DNA of 64,000 bases from a virus: UHGV virus genome UHGV-0375936. One strand, written 5' to 3'. This document shows, in pieces, positions 33,174 through 39,831 of the stretch. Position 1 is the first letter of the stretch, and each line of letters opens with the position of its first letter. The translations under genes were made by a program, and so were the position numbers. The notes under the pieces were generated by a model. The model saw only the letters and a list, made by a program, of their open reading frames with translations. It was not told the DNA's origin and made no database searches.

Positions 33174-33683
33174 TTAGAAGAACGGCTGATTTGGAATGAC
33201 AGCGTACTCTAAAATGAACATATGTTCCGGGGCGTCTTCTTTACGCCAGACTTTGTGTGTCGACACAAGTTTTTCCAGAATCGTTAAGAAACTACGTTGG
33301 CAGTATGTGTTTTCACCAAGCAGTAGATTTTGAAGTTCTACAGTAGCGTCCATATACGCCTGTTTAAAGACTAAACTACGGTTATACTGCCCGGTAAAAT
33401 TCCAAAGCAAGACCTTCCCTTCTTCGGTTTCTTTTACCGTTGGCCGTAAACCACAAATCCACAGTAAGGCAAGGTTGACGTTCCAGTCAAACTCTAAACC
33501 TTCTTCTTCGTCAACACCGAATGCTGTGGGTAAAGCATCGTAAAATTCGTGTTTCTCTGCGAATTCTTCATCCGACTTAATCTCGTCTTCGATACTGCTT
33601 CGGACAATACTGTAAACGTCTTTCGCGGTCAATTGTGCGGCTTTTGTAATGCCTTTATACCAATCGGTTACTACGATGCTCAA
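33174..33683 (-). CDS. Hypothetical protein (169 aa)
   Basis: ORF, 4-nt overlap with upstream SLT gene. Confidence 0.55.
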   Translation of the reverse strand: MSIVVTDWYKGITKAAQLTAKDVYSIVRSSIEDEIKSDEEFAEKHEFYDALPTAFGVDEEEGLEFDWNVNLALLWICGLRPTVKETEEGKVLLWNFTGQYNRSLVFKQAYMDATVELQNLLLGENTYCQRSFLTILEKLVSTHKVWRKEDAPEHMFILEYAVIPNQPFF

Positions 33684-34405
33684 AGGGTAACTCCTCTATT
33701 GATTGGAAAACTCGTGTTTATCGTATCCCAAATTCTACTAACTTCCGCCAGTTGAATCTGACGTGGTGTTTTCTTCGCAAACGCAAGCTGACGTGGGGCC
33801 GAGCCCACAACAACAGGCACATCGATTTTCGCGCTATAGAACGAGGCGTCTTTCATAAAGCCTGCCATTTCTCGTTGTGCTGCTCGAGATTTGCTTTTGA
33901 TTCGCGTGTGAGCGCCACTTTCACCCCAGTGGTAAGCTAACGCAACTTCAGCCATGGTGGGCTTGCGTTTGAGTCGTTTGGTTAACCCCTTCTCAAGATG
34001 TTTAACATACGCGGTAGCCAGCAAAACAGCATTACGCGGATTATACAAATCGGCGTTCTGACTAAGACCTAATTCTTTTCCATAAAGCTTTAGCAGATTA
34101 CGCTTGGTACTTGGAAGCATTTGTACCAGGCTGTGTGCTCGTGAGCTTTTGTTGTAAGCCTTGGGATCAAAACGCGATTCACGATAAATCAGCGTAATCA
34201 TCAGCTTGGGATCAACGCCCTGCTTTCGTGAGATTTCCACAATTAACGGGCTGACTTTTTCGAACCGATGTTGGATTTGTGCAAACTCTCGCTGATGCTT
34301 AGAATGTGGCGTTGACGTTGACGCCTGTGCGTTAAACGCGAAAAGTGTTACCAGTAAAAGAAAGAAGATACGAAACATTTTGTTTCTCCAGTTGGATTTA
34401 TACAT
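33680..34405 (-). CDS. Secreted lytic transglycosylase (SLT domain); candidate endolysin
   Basis: Signal-like MFRIFFLLLVTLFAFNAQA; SLT motif YRESRFDPKAY...SLVQMLPST...AYHWGE. Confidence 0.7.
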   Translation of the reverse strand: MYKSNWRNKMFRIFFLLLVTLFAFNAQASTSTPHSKHQREFAQIQHRFEKVSPLIVEISRKQGVDPKLMITLIYRESRFDPKAYNKSSRAHSLVQMLPSTKRNLLKLYGKELGLSQNADLYNPRNAVLLATAYVKHLEKGLTKRLKRKPTMAEVALAYHWGESGAHTRIKSKSRAAQREMAGFMKDASFYSAKIDVPVVVGSAPRQLAFAKKTPRQIQLAEVSRIWDTINTSFPINRGVTL

Positions 34406-34478
34406 TTCCGTATTCCGTAAGACGAAATGACGGCGCGGACAGCTAATACTCCTTTGTTGTGTGCCCTAATGATAATAT

Positions 34479-34976
34479 CTATTTAAAAGAGTTTGGAATT
34501 AATGACTCTGCTTCTTGGTACAGCTTATCAGGTAAATATAACGTGTAGCGCTGCCTCCTCGGTTCAAGTTTTTTGTAAAGCCACAAAAAGATTTCTTGTC
34601 TTTCCCAGGAATCTAACCACCCATTTGCCATCCCCAGTGGAGGGATAGCAACGCTGGTATCCAGATCCTCAGCACAGTCTGCTAATGCGGTAATGCCCGC
34701 AGTAACATAAGAAACCTGGGATTTTAAACGCCAATGTGTTTTCGTGGGGAGCAAGATACACTTTTCGTCAGAGTAAACGTAAACGCTTCCAATCTTAATT
34801 TCGTCTTCACGACACCGCTTACGATAATCCTGATAAAGGTTGGGGTAGCGTTCACGACACGCGAGTGCAATACCGCGACCCATCGCTCCTACGCAGTTAA
34901 TGGTAACGACTTTATAGTCTTCGGGCGCATTAAAAAGATCGTTACCAATTTCAGATTCTTTACGTACCGTTAACAT
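34479..34976 (-). CDS. Macro domain protein, TARG1/OARD1/DarG-like (ADP-ribose processing)
   Basis: NDLF...KVVTINCVGAMGRGIALACRERYP and LGMANGWLDSWERQ resemble my recollection of the TARG1-type motifs; track start at 35039 is TTG, ATG at 34976 used. Confidence 0.6.
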   Translation of the reverse strand: MLTVRKESEIGNDLFNAPEDYKVVTINCVGAMGRGIALACRERYPNLYQDYRKRCREDEIKIGSVYVYSDEKCILLPTKTHWRLKSQVSYVTAGITALADCAEDLDTSVAIPPLGMANGWLDSWERQEIFLWLYKKLEPRRQRYTLYLPDKLYQEAESLIPNSFK

Positions 34977-35063
34977 AACGAAACGCCCGGAGTTGATGTG
35001 TAGTATTAAAACGTGTACCGCCGATTGATAGCTCGACAAGTATAGCGATATATGTTTTACCCA

Positions 35064-35432
35064 TTATCGATTTTTCGTAATCCATTGCTTGACCGCTGCT
35101 TCTAAACCTTCGTGTTGTAAGCCCAGGCGCTGCATAGTCAGTGACAAGTTAAGCGTGTGGACGACCTGCTCACGGAACTGATGATCGTTCATACGGTCCC
35201 AGACCTTCTCTACTGAAATATTGTGTTTCCAGAGCAAATAAGCTTCACGACACGATGCGCGACGAACTAAACTGGGTTTAACAAAAGGCAACTCGATTTC
35301 AGGCAAGTAACCTAAAAGCTTAACTAACGGCGTTACCTGCGTCTTACCGAAGTCACCACATTGATAACAAATTTGCAGAATATCAATTTCATTCAACGGT
35401 ATGCCGTAAATTGATGGGTTCTCTGTGAACAT
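35064..35432 (-). CDS. Hypothetical protein (122 aa)
   Basis: GAGGAGAA before ATG. Confidence 0.5.
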   Translation of the reverse strand: MFTENPSIYGIPLNEIDILQICYQCGDFGKTQVTPLVKLLGYLPEIELPFVKPSLVRRASCREAYLLWKHNISVEKVWDRMNDHQFREQVVHTLNLSLTMQRLGLQHEGLEAAVKQWITKNR

Positions 35433-35634
35433 TCATATTCTCCTCAGGCTCGAAATGTGATTCGGGTGGCAACGTCCCTAAAGCCCCTTGGATACAAGCC
35501 GTCAGTGAAGGTTTGCCGAAACAGACCTTACCTATCGTCCCCACATTGGGATGCTGTAAGAACGCTTTCGCACGTTCGTATTCTTTCCAACAAATACTCG
35601 TATCCAAACCACCCACTCCGTACGATTTTAACAT
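35389..35634 (-). CDS. Hypothetical protein (81 aa)
   Basis: CAGGAGAG 8 nt before ATG; overlaps downstream gene by 44 nt in another frame. Confidence 0.4.
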   Translation of the reverse strand: MLKSYGVGGLDTSICWKEYERAKAFLQHPNVGTIGKVCFGKPSLTACIQGALGTLPPESHFEPEENMNVHREPINLRHTVE

Positions 35635-35700
35635 AATTAGCTCTCCTGACGTAAATTTCTCACACTCATAGTGAGGTACGCCAAGAGAGCTTTATTGTTT

Positions 35701-36144
35701 TTAGAATGTTTTGCTAAAATCGACCCACTCACGATCGTGTGAGTAAACCGCTTGATAGCCGCGTCGGATGAAATACTCTTTTGCTTCTTTACATTTCGCA
35801 TACATGCCAGTAACAATCTCGCCGAAAACTTCATCAGCTGCAATTGCTTTGAAAATCTCTTTCATTACACCCCGTTGACGATAGTCTGGGAGCACGTATA
35901 CCGAACGTATCTTAAGTGAACCGTTACGATTCCGATAACTACAGTATCCTACCGCGACATCATCCTGATACACCAGAACTATGCAGTTACCTTCGATCAG
36001 CTGTCGCGCATTTAACTTCGGCACCGACATTTTGATTTTCAGTAACGTGGCCTGGTGGTCTAAGTAACGGTAGTGTAGTTTGAGTAAATCGGCAGCTTGT
36101 CGCTCGCCAACTTTAGAAGATGCGTTCAACAAATAAATTTCCAT
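35701..36144 (-). CDS. GNAT-family N-acetyltransferase
   Basis: VLPDYRQRGVMKEIFKAIA (acetyl-CoA binding R/Q-x-x-G-x-G/A type motif); track start is TTG, ATG at 36144 used. Confidence 0.55.
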   Translation of the reverse strand: MEIYLLNASSKVGERQAADLLKLHYRYLDHQATLLKIKMSVPKLNARQLIEGNCIVLVYQDDVAVGYCSYRNRNGSLKIRSVYVLPDYRQRGVMKEIFKAIAADEVFGEIVTGMYAKCKEAKEYFIRRGYQAVYSHDREWVDFSKTF

Positions 36145-36175
36145 TTGCAAACCTTAGAGACGCAAAAAAGTAAAA

Positions 36176-36304
36176 TTAAAACCAACGCGCGATGACGAAA
36201 GCCGCAGCGGCTAATATGGCTGTGGTGATTATCAATCCACCCCATGAAAGTTCCGCGTCGTATAGTGCGGATATCGCTACATTCGTAGCGTTTATCGTGG
36301 TCAT
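36176..36304 (-). CDS. Micro membrane protein (42 aa)
   Basis: ORF below track cutoff; CAGGAGCAGAAA-ATG; MTTINATNVAISALYDAELSWGGLIITTAILAAAAFVIARWF. Confidence 0.4.
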   Translation of the reverse strand: MTTINATNVAISALYDAELSWGGLIITTAILAAAAFVIARWF

Positions 36305-36361
36305 TTTCTGCTCCTGTCAATACCCTCACACCGGAGGGTATCTTCTGGACTATTTGGGTGG

Positions 36362-36460
36362 TTAATCTTCGAACGCCCAACGGTGACGTTTAATCAGCCA
36401 GTTTAAACCTTTACCAATTAACCACAACGAGCCAAGTGTTAACAGAACCCCTACAACCAT
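36362..36460 (-). CDS. Micro membrane protein (32 aa)
   Basis: ORF below track cutoff; AGGAGAGGGAAT-ATG; MVVGVLLTLGSLWLIGKGLNWLIKRHRWAFED. Confidence 0.4.
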   Translation of the reverse strand: MVVGVLLTLGSLWLIGKGLNWLIKRHRWAFED

Positions 36461-36470
36461 ATTCCCTCTC

Positions 36471-36650
36471 CTAATTCCGCCATTCGCATTCGCGTTGACG
36501 CCAAATTGAACCCCACGATAGTTTAATCAGATAAGATGAAACTACCCATAAAATCATCACCACACAAAACATGACATAAAGAACCGCTAGAATGGACATG
36601 AAGCCAAACCCTGCCGCATCCACAATACGACGGAACCAATCAGTTTGCAT
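36471..36650 (-). CDS. Small membrane protein (59 aa)
   Basis: AAGGAG upstream of ATG at 36650; hydrophobic FGFMSILAVLYVMFCVVMILWVV; overlaps 3' end of SbcC-like gene. Confidence 0.45.
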   Translation of the reverse strand: MQTDWFRRIVDAAGFGFMSILAVLYVMFCVVMILWVVSSYLIKLSWGSIWRQRECEWRN

Positions 36651-39144
36651 AAACAATTTTTACTCCTTCGTTATACACCGCAGGCAATGTCACCCCTTCC
36701 GGTTCGATGACACAGTACGATGCTTCATTAAGTTTAGAATGAACCTCGGCTTCGTGGGAGACTACCAACAGTTGGGAAAATTCTCCCGAGTTTGCTAACG
36801 TTTTAATAAAACCGACCAGGTTGTTACGGTGCTCCTCATCCATGCCTTCCGAAGGCTCATCCAAAAGCAACGGAAACTGATGCAACTTCAGCGCTTTGTA
36901 CGCAGTCAGCCTGAACATCAGATTAAATATCGCACGCTGCGCCTTAGACCCTTTACGCACGTCAGGAACAGGCTCAGGATGCGTTTTTAGCTGGACAGGA
37001 AAAGTATAATCCAAATCGCCGTCAGTGAGGTCACAAGGCATAACGCGCATGGGGTACGTCCAGACCTGTTCGATATAACGCGTCATTAACTCTGTGATTC
37101 TAACGATAGCGTTGTAAAAATACTTTCTAAGTACACCCTTTTCTGGCGAGAAGGCTTGAATCATCAGTTTGTTATTGAACTGCTGGGCTTGTAAGTCAGC
37201 AAGTTCGCGTTCCAAACTGTTGAGCTGATTCAATTCATTTTCCATCTGACGATAACGTTCGCGTGCGGTTGTAAAAGCATCCAGCTTCCCTTCTCGAGCA
37301 CGTAAGAGTTCCTCGACGACCGTATTTGTCAACGTAACCTTAACATCACTCTCTAACCGTTCGAATAACGCACTGAAATCATCTACAGCACGTTTAACAT
37401 TCACCAGATAGGTAAGTGTCGTGTTAGCCAGTTCGTGCTCTCTACGACGCATTGAGAGCATCTCTGTGGCTTTACCTAATCGTGACTGTTGAAAAGCAAT
37501 TTTCTGTTGTAAAGCACCATCGACGTTACCAACGGCCGCTACGGCATCCTGCCATTCTTTTTCCGCCTTCACTAACCGTTGTCGGGTTTCATGGTACTCA
37601 ATAGCAGAGTACAACTCACTGTCAAACGCTGCGCATAGACTACCGAACTGTTCACGTGATTCTGTGAAAACGTTACGTTCTTGCAAACGCTTAAAGAACA
37701 TGCTCAATACCGGGTCCTTTGAATACGTCAGCACAATCTCACGAACCTGCCGCATATAAGTTACATCAGATTCTAACTCAACACGATCGCGTAATAGGGC
37801 CTCTAACTGCGTTTGCAGTTCCGTGCGCTGCTGCTGTTGTCCACGAATCGAAGACTCAAGTTCAGGTAAAGAACGTGTAACACCAGGCCGAAACTTAAAC
37901 CGGCACTGCGGACAATCCACTTCCGCTGTTTCTAAGTAGTGATTACGTTCGTGATTTAAATTCTGTAAAACGTTCTCCACTCGCTGGAGTCTATCCCGCA
38001 ACCCTGCGGTTTTTTGATCCATCACCAGAAGCCGTTCTTCCAAAACATTGAGTTTTTCAGTTGAATGAATTGCGTCCAGTGTTGTTCCTAACCGTTGCCC
38101 CCAAACACGCGCATCGGTAGCCGCACGAAGTTGGTCTAAATTGACGTTGTCGTTAAATAGACCCGGAAAGAGATGCTCGGTGTCCCATTTGGTAAGTAAC
38201 TCACGTAAACGCGCCAATGTATTCTTGAGACCTTCGTGATTCCGCATCAGGTAGTCTTGTCGTGTTGACTCATCCATCAATAACGACAAGTCTTTATTCA
38301 ACATCGATACCTCTGTTTCAGTAGACACGACAGCTTCGCGGGCCGTCGCTTCGTTTTGTCGCGCGACCAGTATCTGTTCATCGGTAGGCAGGCCACCACG
38401 ATGTTGTAATATTGCGTCGATGGTTGGGCCCAAGCTGTTTAATAACGCTTGGATTGTTTCGATGGTGACGGCACGATTTAATCCTGGCAACTGTTCGATT
38501 TCTCGGTTCAATTCACGTAAATCCGATTCCAAACCTTTTAATCTCGTCGCTAACTGCTGCCGTTCTTCCTCGTTCTCAATAACACGCGTCCGTAATTCGG
38601 CGATCTTGCGGCTGGTGATTTCAATACCCCCATTTAAGGCAGTAAGGTTTTTACGTAAACGTTGATAAAACCCTAACGCGTAAGTGAGGTCAGAGGTACT
38701 TAAACGGTAAAACCATTTGCGGCGTAATTCGGTTCCCGCATCGGTTAACAACACCTCACCATTTAATAGTTCTTTAATCTCTTTCGTAATACCCGTGATT
38801 TCTTCAACACGGGAGTTGTAGACTTTCGCATTACCTTGCTCGACGATCTTTGTCCCCGTGGTCAGGTTCTCAATATCGCAAACCAAAGAGTTGCCTTTAC
38901 GGGCAACTTTGAATCGATAGCGTTGATCGCCAACTAAACAGTAGTTCGTGTAAGAACCGCCGTCCCTGAATTCAGTTTTAGCTGGTGCTAAGGGTAAGAA
39001 CACAGACAGTAGACTGGTTTTCCCGCAGCCGTTCCCACCCAGGATAATTGTTGTCGGAGACTGGATAGTGAAATCGAAGGTTTCAATTTCATGTAACCCC
39101 ATCCCCGTAAAACCTTTGAGTATAATGCGTTCAACTTTTAGCAT
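36640..39144 (-). CDS. SbcC/Rad50-like SMC-family ATPase with CxxC zinc hook
   Basis: Walker A ILGGNGCGKTSLL; long coiled-coil middle; CPQC hook; Walker B/D-loop LLLDEPSEGMDEE; start set to ATG 39144 preceded by GGAGGTGGG. Confidence 0.7.
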   Translation of the reverse strand: MLKVERIILKGFTGMGLHEIETFDFTIQSPTTIILGGNGCGKTSLLSVFLPLAPAKTEFRDGGSYTNYCLVGDQRYRFKVARKGNSLVCDIENLTTGTKIVEQGNAKVYNSRVEEITGITKEIKELLNGEVLLTDAGTELRRKWFYRLSTSDLTYALGFYQRLRKNLTALNGGIEITSRKIAELRTRVIENEEERQQLATRLKGLESDLRELNREIEQLPGLNRAVTIETIQALLNSLGPTIDAILQHRGGLPTDEQILVARQNEATAREAVVSTETEVSMLNKDLSLLMDESTRQDYLMRNHEGLKNTLARLRELLTKWDTEHLFPGLFNDNVNLDQLRAATDARVWGQRLGTTLDAIHSTEKLNVLEERLLVMDQKTAGLRDRLQRVENVLQNLNHERNHYLETAEVDCPQCRFKFRPGVTRSLPELESSIRGQQQQRTELQTQLEALLRDRVELESDVTYMRQVREIVLTYSKDPVLSMFFKRLQERNVFTESREQFGSLCAAFDSELYSAIEYHETRQRLVKAEKEWQDAVAAVGNVDGALQQKIAFQQSRLGKATEMLSMRRREHELANTTLTYLVNVKRAVDDFSALFERLESDVKVTLTNTVVEELLRAREGKLDAFTTARERYRQMENELNQLNSLERELADLQAQQFNNKLMIQAFSPEKGVLRKYFYNAIVRITELMTRYIEQVWTYPMRVMPCDLTDGDLDYTFPVQLKTHPEPVPDVRKGSKAQRAIFNLMFRLTAYKALKLHQFPLLLDEPSEGMDEEHRNNLVGFIKTLANSGEFSQLLVVSHEAEVHSKLNEASYCVIEPEGVTLPAVYNEGVKIVYAN

Positions 39145-39164
39145 ACCCACCTCCATAAAGACGG

Positions 39165-39217
39165 AGTGTGGTGTAAAAAGAAAAAAATAAAGAAAGGGAG
39201 AACCCGAAGGTTCTCCC
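39165..39217 (-). terminator. Rho-independent terminator (minus strand)
   Basis: GGGAGAACC-cgaa-GGTTCTCCC hairpin then long T-run on minus strand. Confidence 0.65.
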
Positions 39218-39222
39218 TAACG

Positions 39223-39831
39223 TTATTTGGTATACAGCTGATAACCCATTGAAGCCCAATAATCAATGTTCTTCGCGTTTTCTACCCAAACCTGTCCCGC
39301 CTTTGTGGCTAAGACTTCCATTGTCAATGTACAGATCAGATTTGTTACCTGGATACAATTTCCAGGTGTAACATCATCCAGATAAACCGGATATAAAAAC
39401 GGCGATTTAATGGATTGGTACGGGTAAGAATAGTGGCTACCGACTTTCCACCCTTCTTCTACAGGGCAGAGATTATAAGTGCGTGTTTCAGGAACTGCGT
39501 TTTCAGAGATCCAGTTAACAACATCGGCTTTAATTCGATCGTGGTCGATATAGTAGAACACAACACGCTGTGGGATACTTGTGGTACCAGCCGGGTCTAA
39601 AGCCTCCAACGCCTTAAAAGGCGACGTTAACAATGTTGTACTGTTCTCAAGCGCGTAAACCAACTTTTCGTAAGCAGTCGGTGTTTTGCGTTTAAAATAT
39701 TCCCGTAAGCGAGGGTAAGCCAGGAAGCCCTCTACTTCTTCTTCCATTAAGTCAATGAATAAAGGCGTATGCGAAAACCGCTCTGCATTTTGCATCGCTT
39801 CAAGAAAACGAACTAATGTAATTTCGTTCAT
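39223..39831 (-). CDS. Hypothetical protein (202 aa)
   Basis: ORF, minus strand; no metallophosphatase motifs seen. Confidence 0.55.
   Translation of the reverse strand: MNEITLVRFLEAMQNAERFSHTPLFIDLMEEEVEGFLAYPRLREYFKRKTPTAYEKLVYALENSTTLLTSPFKALEALDPAGTTSIPQRVVFYYIDHDRIKADVVNWISENAVPETRTYNLCPVEEGWKVGSHYSYPYQSIKSPFLYPVYLDDVTPGNCIQVTNLICTLTMEVLATKAGQVWVENAKNIDYWASMGYQLYTK

What the first reader, a model, noticed from the sequence alone, without database searches (positions are those of the whole stretch)
34479..36656. Macro domain (TARG1/DarG-like) gene next to a GNAT acetyltransferase and three micro membrane-protein ORFs
34479-34976 carries what looks like the TARG1/OARD1-type macro signature (VVTINCVGAMGRGIALA...LGMANGWLD), the fold used by DarG and related enzymes to remove ADP-ribose. 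Downstream lie a GNAT acetyltransferase and three tightly packed ORFs of 42, 32 and 59 aa, each essentially a single hydrophobic helix with its own SD. A phage macro domain is a plausible counter-defense against ADP-ribosylating systems; the GNAT could modify a host or phage target.
Basis: partly seen in the sequence, partly recalled or inferred. Interest (0 to 1): 0.6.

Follow-up and report, generated by a model that had tools for sequence, protein, structure and literature searches.

The report
Jumbo-phage AdfM anti-DarT macrodomain gene

Summary
All lie on the minus strand, in a block syntenic with phages SPN3US, Asesino and Machina.

The 165-aa protein at 34479-34976 is a stand-alone DarG-type macrodomain:
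- Pfam Macro scores above threshold. The NCBIfam and PADLOC DarG models hit at E about 1e-36, but only over their N-terminal halves.
- The best solved structures by sequence and by fold are the T. aquaticus and M. tuberculosis DarG macrodomains. TARG1 comes clearly after them.
- It is 61% identical to Asesino gp217 and 35-40% identical to PhiKZ gp104. Both were published in April 2026 as AdfM. PhiKZ AdfM removes DarT2 ADP-ribose from ssDNA and protects against DarTG2, and both proteins were shown to localise to the phage nucleus.
- The catalytic Asn and Lys are conserved (N27, K79).

So this is an AdfM orthologue: a new member of a known kind, of low interest.

- The GNAT is upstream of the macro gene and not adjacent to it. 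Three ORFs between them were missed (81, 122 and 34 aa).
- The 59/32/42-aa membrane micro-ORFs are real genes (dN/dS 0.06-0.32, conserved across genera). Their function is unknown.

Side observation: the 81-aa ORF after the GNAT copies the EF-Tu N-terminus without a working P-loop. A conserved hairpin that sequesters its Shine-Dalgarno sequence precedes it. I found no paper describing either.

The parts
34479..34976 (-). AdfM orthologue: a stand-alone DarG2-type macrodomain, 165 aa, predicted ADP-ribosyl-DNA glycohydrolase. Predicted catalytic residues N27 and K79.
   Evidence: Pfam Macro above the gathering score. NCBIfam antitoxin_DarG E 7.7e-36 over model positions 7-155 of 338. PADLOC DarG E 9e-37. 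PDB sequence hits 5m3i and 5m31. AF2 model pLDDT 93.7, and Foldseek top hits are DarG macrodomains. 61% identical to Asesino gp217 and 35% to PhiKZ gp104. tblastn with gp104 gives one significant hit in the window, E 6e-26.
34960..35064 (-). 34-aa micro-ORF (MGKTYIAILVELSIGGTRF...). Its ATG overlaps the stop of the 122-aa gene (TAATG). Its 3' end overlaps the AdfM ATG by 17 nt. It is a likely translational-coupling ORF, because AdfM has no Shine-Dalgarno sequence of its own.
   Evidence: Conserved in L009, L010 and L011, with mostly synonymous changes in the first 20 codons. SPN3US_0195 and an unannotated Asesino ORF occupy the same position.
35064..35432 (-). 122-aa conserved hypothetical protein (phrog_11720), function unknown.
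   Evidence: PHROG E 1.3e-30. 46 phage records, all in the same clade. dN/dS 0.07. No Pfam, NCBIfam or PADLOC hit.
35389..35634 (-). 81-aa protein homologous to EF-Tu residues about 4-38 (strand beta1, P-loop, helix alpha1), with a degenerate P-loop (GKVCFGKP).
   Evidence: NCBIfam EF-Tu models E 3e-4. BLASTP against E. coli EF-Tu E 1e-6; Asesino gp213 gives 2e-8. The family profile hits about 59 EF-Tu sequences in the PDB (E 1.6e-7 to 5e-5) and next eIF2-gamma at 0.023. Invariant HxNVGTIGxV. dN/dS 0.16.
35639..35691 (-). Conserved two-tier RNA hairpin in the spacer between the GNAT and the 81-aa ORF. The 3' arm of its 13-15 bp outer stem contains the Shine-Dalgarno sequence of the 81-aa ORF.
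   Evidence: MFE -29.7 kcal/mol against -11.7 +/- 3.0 for shuffles. The same fold appears in 7 relatives from 3 genera. The alignment and RNAalifold show compensatory pairs. Unique in the window. No Rfam match.
35701..36144 (-). GNAT acetyltransferase, 147 aa from the ATG (an alternative TTG start lies at 36150). Subfamily and substrate unassigned.
   Evidence: Pfam Acetyltransf_1, _7 and _10 above threshold. phrog_3810. 50 phage records in the same clade. The family profile's best PDB hit is YjcF 1q2y at 2.4e-6, and no RimI appears.
36176..36304 (-). 42-aa single-pass membrane protein with a C-terminal hydrophobic helix.
   Evidence: Hydrophobic stretch and AGGAG Shine-Dalgarno. Homologous to SPN3US_0189 and to ORFs in L009 and L010. 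dN/dS 0.09-0.19.
36362..36460 (-). 32-aa single-pass membrane protein with an N-terminal helix and a conserved (G/R)WAF motif.
   Evidence: phrog_13448 E 6.6e-14. Conserved in L009 and L010, and as unannotated ORFs in SPN3US (L003:1109-1213) and Asesino (L004:1864-1974). dN/dS 0.06-0.32.
36471..36656 (-). 59-aa (ATG 36650) or 61-aa (TTG 36656) single-pass membrane protein with a conserved C-terminal CEWR motif. It overlaps the 3' end of the SbcC-like gene.
   Evidence: Kyte-Doolittle 2.8 helix and AAGGAG Shine-Dalgarno. phrog_16515. Homologous to SPN3US_0187 and Asesino gp208. dN/dS 0.24.
36640..39156 (-). SbcC/Rad50-like SMC ATPase. It is the first gene of the syntenic block (context only).
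   Evidence: phrog_77 E 1.3e-91. NCBIfam Rad50. A terminator-like hairpin lies just upstream at 39195-39218.
33680..34405 (-). SLT lytic transglycosylase with an N-terminal signal-peptide-like sequence, immediately downstream of AdfM (context only).
   Evidence: Pfam SLT 55.6 bits. Annotated 'putative endolysin' in SPN3US and Asesino.

Best explanation
The 165-aa protein is the AdfM (anti-DarT factor, macro) orthologue of an uncultivated SPN3US/Asesino-like chimallivirus, a nucleus-forming jumbo phage whose host is probably Salmonella.

It is an 'orphan antitoxin': the macrodomain half of a DarG2 antitoxin without the C-terminal DarT-binding domain and without a partner darT gene.

Proposed mechanism.
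1. Host DarT2 ADP-ribosylates thymidines in TNTC motifs of single-stranded phage DNA.
2. AdfM binds the ADP-ribose in the macrodomain cleft and hydrolyses the base-ribose bond. It uses the DarG-type Lys (K79) with help from Asn (N27).
3. This restores unmodified DNA, so replication and above all genome packaging can go on.
4. By analogy with PhiKZ, PhiPA3 and Asesino AdfM, the protein is imported into the phage nucleus, where the DNA is.

Basis of each step.
- Shown here: fold, family, catalytic residues, domain architecture, orthology and synteny.
- Shown by others for orthologues: enzyme activity, DarTG2 protection and nuclear localisation.
- Inferred for this protein: all three of those, plus translation coupled to the overlapping 34-aa upstream ORF.
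For: Family and domain.
- Pfam Macro above the gathering score.
- NCBIfam antitoxin_DarG E 7.7e-36 and PADLOC DarG E 9e-37. Both cover only the N-terminal macro half of the model.
- Best solved-structure relatives by sequence are M. tuberculosis DarG (E 2.5e-25), T. aquaticus DarG (2.8e-20) and Thermosipho DarTG.

Fold.
- AF2 model pLDDT 93.7.
- Foldseek top hits are 5m31, 5m3e and 5m3i at E about 4e-13 and TM 0.84-0.86. TARG1 follows at 1e-7.

Orthology.
- 61% identity to Asesino gp217 and 35% to PhiKZ gp104. N27 and K79 are invariant with PhiKZ N23/K78 and T. aquaticus N22/K80.
- tblastn with gp104 finds only this gene in the window (39.7% over 126 aa, E 6e-26).
- The order SMC, micro-ORFs, GNAT, hypothetical genes, macro, SLT is shared with SPN3US, Proteus phage 7, Asesino, ChrisDB, Huxley and pEa_SNUABM_29.
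- The window is colinear with SPN3US gp239 to gp186.

Published experiments.
- PMC13309987 shows that PhiKZ AdfM removes DarT2 ADP-ribose from ssDNA and that N23A reduces this activity. It rescues DarT2 toxicity. Deletion mutants are restricted by DarTG2. AdfM of Asesino, PhiKZ and PhiPA3 is nuclear.
- SPN3US has a chimallin homologue and Asesino forms a nucleus.

Target motif. TNTC is not depleted in the window (2292 observed against 2091 +/- 43 expected). The genome therefore offers plenty of DarT2 target sites.
Against: - Nothing has been measured for this protein, nor for any Salmonella-phage orthologue.
- Identity to the biochemically tested PhiKZ enzyme is only 35-40%.
- The second phosphate-binding loop reads GMANGW, against GVGNGG in bacterial DarG. 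The Ala is shared with PhiKZ AdfM (GCANGG), but the Trp is specific to this clade. Substrate range could therefore differ.
- The chimallin and PicA genes of this phage lie outside the window. Nucleus formation and import are inferred from relatives only.
- Whether the hosts of this phage carry DarTG2 was not examined.
Confidence: 0.82

Rival explanations
1. A general ADP-ribose 'housekeeping' or signal-degrading macrodomain. It would act on O-acetyl-ADP-ribose, ADP-ribose-1''-phosphate, ADP-ribosylated proteins or RNA (for example CmdT-type mRNA modification), or ADPr-derived immune signals, and not on DarT2-modified DNA.
For: Database annotations of orthologues read 'Appr-1-p processing protein', 'phosphatase' or 'protein-ADP-ribosylation protein'. 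Iyer et al. 2021 proposed that jumbo-phage Macro domains degrade soluble ADPr signals. The clade-specific Trp in the GMANGW loop could alter specificity.
Against: The closest sequence and structure relatives are DarG macrodomains, not MacroD, YmdB or Poa1p types. The orthologue-level experiments show DNA de-ADP-ribosylation and DarTG2-specific protection. The old annotations are generic transfers made before that work.
Confidence: 0.1
2. An antitoxin or regulator for an ADP-ribosyltransferase encoded by the phage itself, either a phage-borne DarT-like toxin or an Alt/Mod-like enzyme.
For: In bacteria, DarG macrodomains are normally paired with a darT gene immediately upstream.
Against: The upstream ORFs (34, 122 and 81 aa) have no DarT/DUF4433 or ART hit in Pfam, NCBIfam or PADLOC. 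tblastn with a DarT2 sequence finds nothing in the 64-kb window. The protein lacks the DarT-binding C-terminal domain.
Confidence: 0.04
3. A catalytically weak ADP-ribose 'reader' that binds modified DNA or protein without hydrolysing it.
For: The second phosphate loop has substitutions (G to A, G to W) relative to bacterial DarG.
Against: The catalytic Asn and Lys and the first loop GxMGxG are invariant across 27 homologues. PhiKZ AdfM carries the same Ala and is active. dN/dS of 0.09 indicates strong constraint.
Confidence: 0.04

Closest known systems
AdfM (anti-DarT factor macro): PhiKZ gp104, PhiPA3 gp108, Goslar gp83, Asesino gp217 (Morgan et al., Cell Rep 2026, PMC13309987)
   Same: A stand-alone DarG2-like macrodomain of about 160 aa encoded by a chimallivirus. 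The catalytic Asn and Lys and the 'PPLGxANG' loop are the same. It is 61% identical to Asesino gp217, in the same syntenic position (SMC ... macro, then SLT).
   Different: Only 35-40% identical to the biochemically tested PhiKZ protein. It has the clade-specific GMANGW loop and the C-terminal tail (YLP..L..EA..IPNSFK) shared with SPN3US and Asesino. The host is probably Salmonella. This member has no experimental data.
DarG2 antitoxin of DarTG2 toxin-antitoxin systems (T. aquaticus and M. tuberculosis; PDB 5m31, 5m3e, 5m3i)
   Same: Macrodomain fold with TM 0.84-0.86, 32-34% identity over the structural alignment, and the catalytic Lys (PTK motif) and Asn. It is expected to hydrolyse thymidine-linked ADP-ribose on ssDNA.
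   Different: It lacks the C-terminal DarT-binding domain (165 aa against roughly 330-340). There is no adjacent darT. It is phage-encoded and acts against the host's toxin rather than a cognate one.
TARG1/OARD1 (human C6orf130; PDB 4j5q, 4j5s)
   Same: The same macrodomain subclass with a catalytic Lys in the equivalent strand-loop. Foldseek E 1e-7, TM about 0.8.
   Different: Only 19% identity. The Asp of the TARG1 Lys/Asp dyad is not conserved in this phage family. TARG1 acts mainly on Glu-linked protein ADP-ribose.
AdfN (T4 gp30.3), a NADAR-type orphan antitoxin against DarTG1 (PMC11825919)
   Same: The same strategy: the phage carries only the enzymatic 'eraser' half of a DarTG antitoxin and reverses DNA ADP-ribosylation.
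   Different: An unrelated fold (NADAR). It reverses guanine modification by DarT1, not thymidine modification by DarT2.
AdfA (RB69/T4) and AdfB (ICP1)
   Same: Phage anti-DarTG factors.
   Different: Small non-enzymatic proteins thought to bind and block DarT. They have no homology to the macrodomain.

Membership tests
Macro domain superfamily (Pfam PF01661) | Score above Pfam's gathering threshold and a three-layer alpha/beta/alpha macro fold | tested here: met
   26.9 bits against a gathering score of 22. AF2 pLDDT 93.7. More than 180 PDB macro-type matches at E <= 1e-3.
DarG-type (DarG2) macrodomain | Closest to DarG macrodomains by sequence and by structure | tested here: met
   The top 3 PDB sequence hits and the top 4 Foldseek hits are DarG or DarTG. 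NCBIfam and PADLOC DarG models hit at E about 1e-36.
DarG-type (DarG2) macrodomain | Catalytic Lys (T. aquaticus K80, 'PTK') and Asn (N22, 'xVN') | tested here: met
   K79 and N27 align with PhiKZ K78 and N23. K79 is invariant and N27 at least 90% conserved in 27 homologues.
Complete DarG2 antitoxin / DarTG2 system | C-terminal DarT-binding domain (protein of roughly 330-340 aa) | tested here: not met
   The protein is 165 aa. The match covers model positions 7-155 of 338 (NCBIfam) and 7-152 of 329 (PADLOC). The score of 124 is below the equivalog cut-off of 250.
Complete DarG2 antitoxin / DarTG2 system | Adjacent darT (DUF4433) toxin gene | tested here: not met
   Neighbouring ORFs give no DarT hit. 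tblastn with a DarT2 sequence finds nothing in the window.
TARG1/OARD1 | Lys/Asp catalytic dyad (human K84/D125; recalled from the literature, not checked here) | tested here: not met
   The Lys is present. The Asp-equivalent position (window D122) is R in SPN3US and in the 89% relative L010, and T in Asesino. Identity to TARG1 is 19%.
AdfM | Stand-alone DarG2-like macrodomain encoded by a chimallivirus and orthologous to a named AdfM | tested here: met
   61% identical to Asesino gp217, which PMC13309987 names as AdfM, and at the same syntenic position. The window is colinear with SPN3US, which carries a chimallin homologue.
AdfM | Hydrolyses DarT2-made ADP-ribose on ssDNA and protects the phage from DarTG2 | not testable with these tools
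   Shown for PhiKZ and PhiPA3 only.
AdfM | Imported into the phage nucleus | not testable with these tools
   Shown for the Asesino, PhiKZ and PhiPA3 proteins. No import signal is known that could be scored.
GNAT acetyltransferases (35701-36144) | Pfam GNAT model above threshold | tested here: met
   Acetyltransf_1 32.9 bits (GA 20.7), Acetyltransf_7 32.9 (GA 27), Acetyltransf_10 26.9 (GA 23.6).
RimI (ribosomal-protein-alanine / EF-Tu N-terminal acetyltransferase), as some phage records annotate the GNAT | NCBIfam rimI equivalog score, or RimI as the nearest solved relative | tested here: not met
   17 bits against a cut-off of 86.4. The family profile finds YjcF and generic GNATs, with no RimI at E <= 0.1.
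EF-Tu / translational GTPase (81-aa ORF, annotated 'putative elongation factor Tu' in some relatives) | Complete G domain with the P-loop GxxxxGK[ST] | tested here: not met
   Only EF-Tu residues about 4-38 are matched. The P-loop is GKVCFGKP in the window and GHVDHSR in Asesino and Machinavirus. Pfam GTP_EFTU reaches 0.017 at best.

The most novel reading that the evidence does not exclude
The macro gene itself is ordinary. The block just upstream of it could be a previously undescribed translation-directed module:
- a clade-specific GNAT;
- then a strongly conserved hairpin that sequesters a Shine-Dalgarno sequence;
- then an 81-aa protein that copies the first ~35 residues of EF-Tu (beta1, dead P-loop, alpha1).

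On this reading, the mini-protein acts as a mimic or decoy of the EF-Tu N-terminus. It might act against a host factor or defence that recognises or modifies that segment, or it might perturb EF-Tu itself. Its synthesis would be switched by the RNA structure. The GNAT may or may not take part.
Probability: 0.15. Interest if true: 0.6.

Novelty: new member of a known kind. Interest (0 to 1): 0.25.

Why it matters
It extends the AdfM family, shown experimentally only in Pseudomonas phages (with localisation also in one Erwinia phage), to an uncultivated Salmonella-associated SPN3US-like lineage. That supports the view that even nucleus-forming phages need an enzymatic eraser against DarTG2. In practice, it predicts that SPN3US-type phages considered for Salmonella biocontrol resist DarTG2-carrying strains through this gene.

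Beyond that the finding adds no new principle. The only potentially new biology in the interval is:
- the EF-Tu-N-terminus-like mini-protein with its conserved regulatory hairpin;
- the set of conserved micro membrane proteins, some of which are unannotated in the reference genomes.

Tried and rejected
- Megablast of 34300-36900 against the phage collection found nothing. The lineage is too diverged at the DNA level, and only protein searches worked.
- Macro-GNAT functional link: rejected. The phyletic spread differs (287 against 50 phage records) and 2-4 variable genes lie between them.
- GNAT as RimI: rejected.
- GNAT structure: the AF2 model with a shallow alignment reached only pLDDT 53.7, so no fold search was run on it.
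- GNAT/EF-Tu-like co-distribution as evidence of a functional pair: weakened. The unrelated 122-aa gene has the same clade-restricted distribution, so the whole block is simply syntenic.
- The EF-Tu-like protein as an obvious GNAT substrate: no support. There is no conserved Lys in the EF-Tu-like N-terminal motif (CWKEYERAKAF / CWPEYARVIPF), and residue 2 is Leu or Phe.
- Recent capture of host tuf DNA: no nucleotide similarity to E. coli genomes.
- The hairpin as a repeated promoter or terminator motif: it is unique in the window, and Rfam has no match.
- Word-indexed homologue searches for the 81-aa protein and the GNAT returned only close relatives. The exhaustive search found just 5 family clusters plus 2 repeat-protein false positives.
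- A phage-borne DarT: none found.
- TNTC avoidance: none found.

Full report
**1. What is in the interval**

Every gene between 33.1 and 39.2 kb is on the minus strand. In the direction of transcription the order is:

| Coordinates | Product |
|---|---|
| 36640-39156 | SbcC/Rad50-like ATPase (phrog_77, E 1e-91) |
| 36471-36650 (or -36656) | 59/61-aa ORF |
| 36362-36460 | 32-aa ORF |
| 36176-36304 | 42-aa ORF |
| 35701-36144 | GNAT |
| 35389-35634 | 81-aa ORF |
| 35064-35432 | 122-aa ORF |
| 34960-35064 | 34-aa ORF |
| 34479-34976 | macro protein |
| 33680-34405 | SLT transglycosylase |

They are upstream, and three ORFs in between were missed.
- A terminator-like hairpin lies just before the SbcC start (39195-39218). 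No comparable terminator follows on the minus strand through the macro gene. The block is therefore plausibly one transcription unit.

**2. Which genome this is**

- Megablast found no phage record.
- tblastn with the macro protein found 287 phage records. The best are SPN3US-like Salmonella phages (65%) and Erwinia phages such as Asesino (62%).
- The order SMC, micro-ORFs, GNAT, hypotheticals, macro, SLT recurs in:
  - SPN3US, Proteus phage 7 and pEa_SNUABM_29 (Seoulvirus);
  - Asesino (Erskinevirus);
  - ChrisDB and Huxley (Machinavirus).
- The window starts inside the homologue of SPN3US gp239 and runs colinearly down past gp186.
- The exact macro protein is encoded on 224-225 kb metagenome contigs. 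An 89% relative sits on a 226-kb contig of a Salmonella enterica assembly.
- SPN3US has a chimallin homologue and Asesino forms a phage nucleus.
- Conclusion: the window comes from an uncultivated SPN3US/Asesino-like chimallivirus, probably of Salmonella.

**3. The macro protein**

Family and domain:
- Pfam Macro passes its gathering score (26.9 against 22).
- The NCBIfam DarG antitoxin equivalog matches at E 7.7e-36, but only over model positions 7-155 of 338. The score of 124 is below the full-length cut-off of 250.
- The PADLOC DarG model behaves the same way (E 9e-37, positions 7-152 of 329).

Solved structures:
- The best sequence relatives are the M. tuberculosis DarG macrodomain (E 2.5e-25), the T. 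aquaticus DarG macrodomain (2.8e-20) and Thermosipho DarTG (2e-11).
- An AlphaFold2 model from 27 homologues has pLDDT 93.7.
- Foldseek places 5m31, 5m3e and 5m3i first (E about 4e-13, TM 0.84-0.86), then Thermosipho DarTG. TARG1 follows only at E 1e-7 with 19% identity.

Residues:
- The DarG catalytic Lys (K79, 'PTK') and the Asn (N27) are conserved.
- The Asp that pairs with Lys in TARG1 is not conserved in SPN3US, Asesino or the 89% relative.

The protein is therefore a DarG2-type macrodomain with no DarT-binding domain. No darT gene is present beside it or anywhere in the window.

**4. What is already known**

A full-text search found Morgan et al., Cell Rep 2026 (PMC13309987). That paper reports:
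- PhiKZ gp104 is a DarG2-like macrodomain, named AdfM, that is imported into the phage nucleus.
- It removes DarT2-made ADP-ribose from a TNTC oligonucleotide. The N23A mutant is impaired.
- It rescues DarT2 toxicity.
- Its deletion lets DarTG2 restrict PhiKZ and PhiPA3, mainly by blocking genome packaging.
- AdfM homologues occur in about half of chimalliviruses.
- Asesino gp217 is named as an AdfM, and its GFP fusion is nuclear.

How the window protein relates:
- It is 61% identical to Asesino gp217, 64% to SPN3US_0196 and 35% to PhiKZ gp104. N27 and K79 align with PhiKZ N23 and K78.
- tblastn with gp104 hits only this gene in the window (39.7% over 126 aa, E 6e-26).

This is an orthologue of AdfM.

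**5. Mechanism**

- Established for orthologues and inferred here: host DarT2 ADP-ribosylates thymidine in TNTC motifs of single-stranded phage DNA. AdfM, concentrated in the phage nucleus, hydrolyses the modification, and packaging and replication proceed.
- TNTC is not avoided in the window (2292 sites against 2091 +/- 43 expected). This fits reliance on an eraser rather than on motif depletion.
- The AdfM start codon has no Shine-Dalgarno sequence. It is overlapped by a conserved 34-aa ORF whose own start overlaps the stop of the 122-aa gene (TAATG). Translation is probably coupled.
- Uncertainties:
  - There are no data for this protein.
  - Identity to the tested enzyme is only 35-40%.
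  - The phosphate loop carries a clade-specific Trp (GMANGW).
  - The nucleus and import genes lie outside the window.

**6. Rivals**

- A generic ADP-ribose metabolite, protein or RNA eraser is what the old annotations and Iyer et al. 2021 suggest. The specific DarG affinity and the published genetics make it less likely.
- An antitoxin for a phage-borne ART is unlikely. There is no DarT or ART nearby and no DarT-binding domain.
- A non-catalytic reader is unlikely given the invariant catalytic residues and a dN/dS of 0.09.

**7. The GNAT and its neighbours**

The GNAT:
- It passes three Pfam models, but no subfamily can be assigned.
- NCBIfam rimI scores 17 bits against a cut-off of 86. A profile of eight phage homologues finds B. 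subtilis YjcF and generic GNATs, not RimI.
- The AF2 model was too poor to use.
- It occurs in 50 phage records of the SPN3US/Asesino/Machina clade only. The macro gene is far more widespread. I see no evidence that the two work together.

The 81-aa ORF:
- It lies immediately after the GNAT in every relative examined. It is homologous to the N-terminus of EF-Tu:
  - BLASTP E 1e-6; Asesino gp213 gives 2e-8, with HVNVGTIGHVDH identical to EF-Tu.
  - A family profile hits about 59 EF-Tu sequences in the PDB and, at significant E-values, nothing else (next best eIF2-gamma at 0.023).
- It covers only beta1, P-loop and alpha1, and the GK[ST] of the P-loop is lost. It cannot be a GTPase.
- Some depositors labelled homologues 'putative elongation factor Tu'. 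I found no paper about it.
- The family is tiny: 5 clusters among 1.84 billion representatives.

The hairpin:
- The 66-nt spacer in front of the 81-aa ORF folds into a two-tier hairpin. The 3' arm contains the ORF's Shine-Dalgarno sequence.
- MFE is -29.7 kcal/mol against -11.7 +/- 3.0 for shuffles.
- The structure, and much of the sequence, is kept in eight phages of three genera with compensatory changes. It is better conserved than the flanking proteins.
- It is unique in the window and has no Rfam match.

Caveats on a functional link:
- RimI acetylates the EF-Tu N-terminus in E. coli (PMC9079301). That makes a GNAT/EF-Tu-mimic link tempting.
- The GNAT is not demonstrably RimI-like.
- The mimic has no conserved acceptor Lys.
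- The unrelated 122-aa gene shares the same clade distribution. Co-occurrence therefore proves nothing.

**8. The micro-ORFs**

- The 59/61, 32 and 42-aa ORFs each have one hydrophobic helix and a GGAG-type Shine-Dalgarno sequence.
- All three are conserved in relatives at 76-90% identity.
  - The 59-aa ORF matches SPN3US_0187 and Asesino gp208.
  - The 42-aa ORF matches SPN3US_0189.
  - The 32-aa ORF matches unannotated ORFs in both reference genomes.
- dN/dS is 0.06-0.32. They are real genes.
- SPN3US and Asesino carry one or two additional small membrane proteins at the same place. The cassette therefore varies in copy number.
- Their function is unknown. Holin-like or membrane-remodelling roles are only guesses.

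**9. Verdict**

- The gene is a new member of a family described in April 2026 and adds no new principle, so interest is low.
- The EF-Tu-N-terminus-like mini-protein with its conserved SD-sequestering hairpin is the only element here that I could not find described. It deserves a note.

Noticed in passing
window 35389-35634 (-): An 81-aa ORF directly after the GNAT is homologous to EF-Tu residues about 4-38 (beta1, P-loop, alpha1) but has lost the P-loop GK[ST]. It is conserved in about 48 SPN3US-, Asesino- and Machina-like phages and forms only 5 clusters worldwide. Function unknown, and no paper found.
   Followed up: partly
window 35639-35691 (-): A two-tier RNA hairpin (-29.7 kcal/mol, z about -6) occupies the GNAT-to-81-aa spacer, and its 3' arm sequesters the 81-aa ORF's Shine-Dalgarno sequence. 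The structure and sequence are conserved in 8 phages of 3 genera with compensatory pairs. It is unique in the window and has no Rfam match. It could be a translational switch or an RNase III-type site.
   Followed up: partly
window 34960-35064 (-): A fourth conserved micro-ORF (34 aa) bridges the 122-aa gene (TAATG stop/start overlap) and the AdfM start (17-nt overlap). AdfM has no Shine-Dalgarno sequence, so translation is probably coupled. SPN3US_0195 and an unannotated Asesino ORF sit in the same place.
   Followed up: partly
L003:1109-1213 (SPN3US) and L004:1864-1974 (Asesino): Homologues of the window's 32-aa membrane protein (conserved GWAF motif) are present but unannotated in both reference genomes. 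SPN3US also has an unannotated 35-aa ORF at L003:1506-1613 that resembles Asesino gp210 ('ALTQGWF').
   Followed up: partly
window 36318-36342: A small hairpin lies between the 32-aa and 42-aa ORFs (8-9 bp stem). The stem sequence differs in relatives L009 and L010 but still pairs. No U-tract follows it.
   Followed up: no
window 33680-34405 (-): The SLT transglycosylase just after AdfM ('putative endolysin' in SPN3US and Asesino) starts with a typical cleavable signal peptide (MFRIFFLLLVTLFAFNAQA|S). This suggests Sec-dependent export. No holin is annotated nearby.
   Followed up: no
window 39195-39218: A perfect 10-bp GC-rich hairpin followed by a T-run on both strands sits between the 202-aa ORF (39223-39831) and the SbcC-like gene. 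It is a likely bidirectional intrinsic terminator marking the start of the block.
   Followed up: no
L010 (GCA_014613015.1, contig AAWEAX010000007.1, 226 kb): A near-complete genome of a close relative (macro protein 89% identical) sits as a single contig in a Salmonella enterica isolate assembly. This suggests carriage or contamination of the isolate by this jumbo phage, and points to the host.
   Followed up: no
window 1-64000: The DarT2 target motif TNTC is slightly enriched, not depleted (2292 observed against 2091 +/- 43 under an order-2 Markov model).
   Followed up: yes
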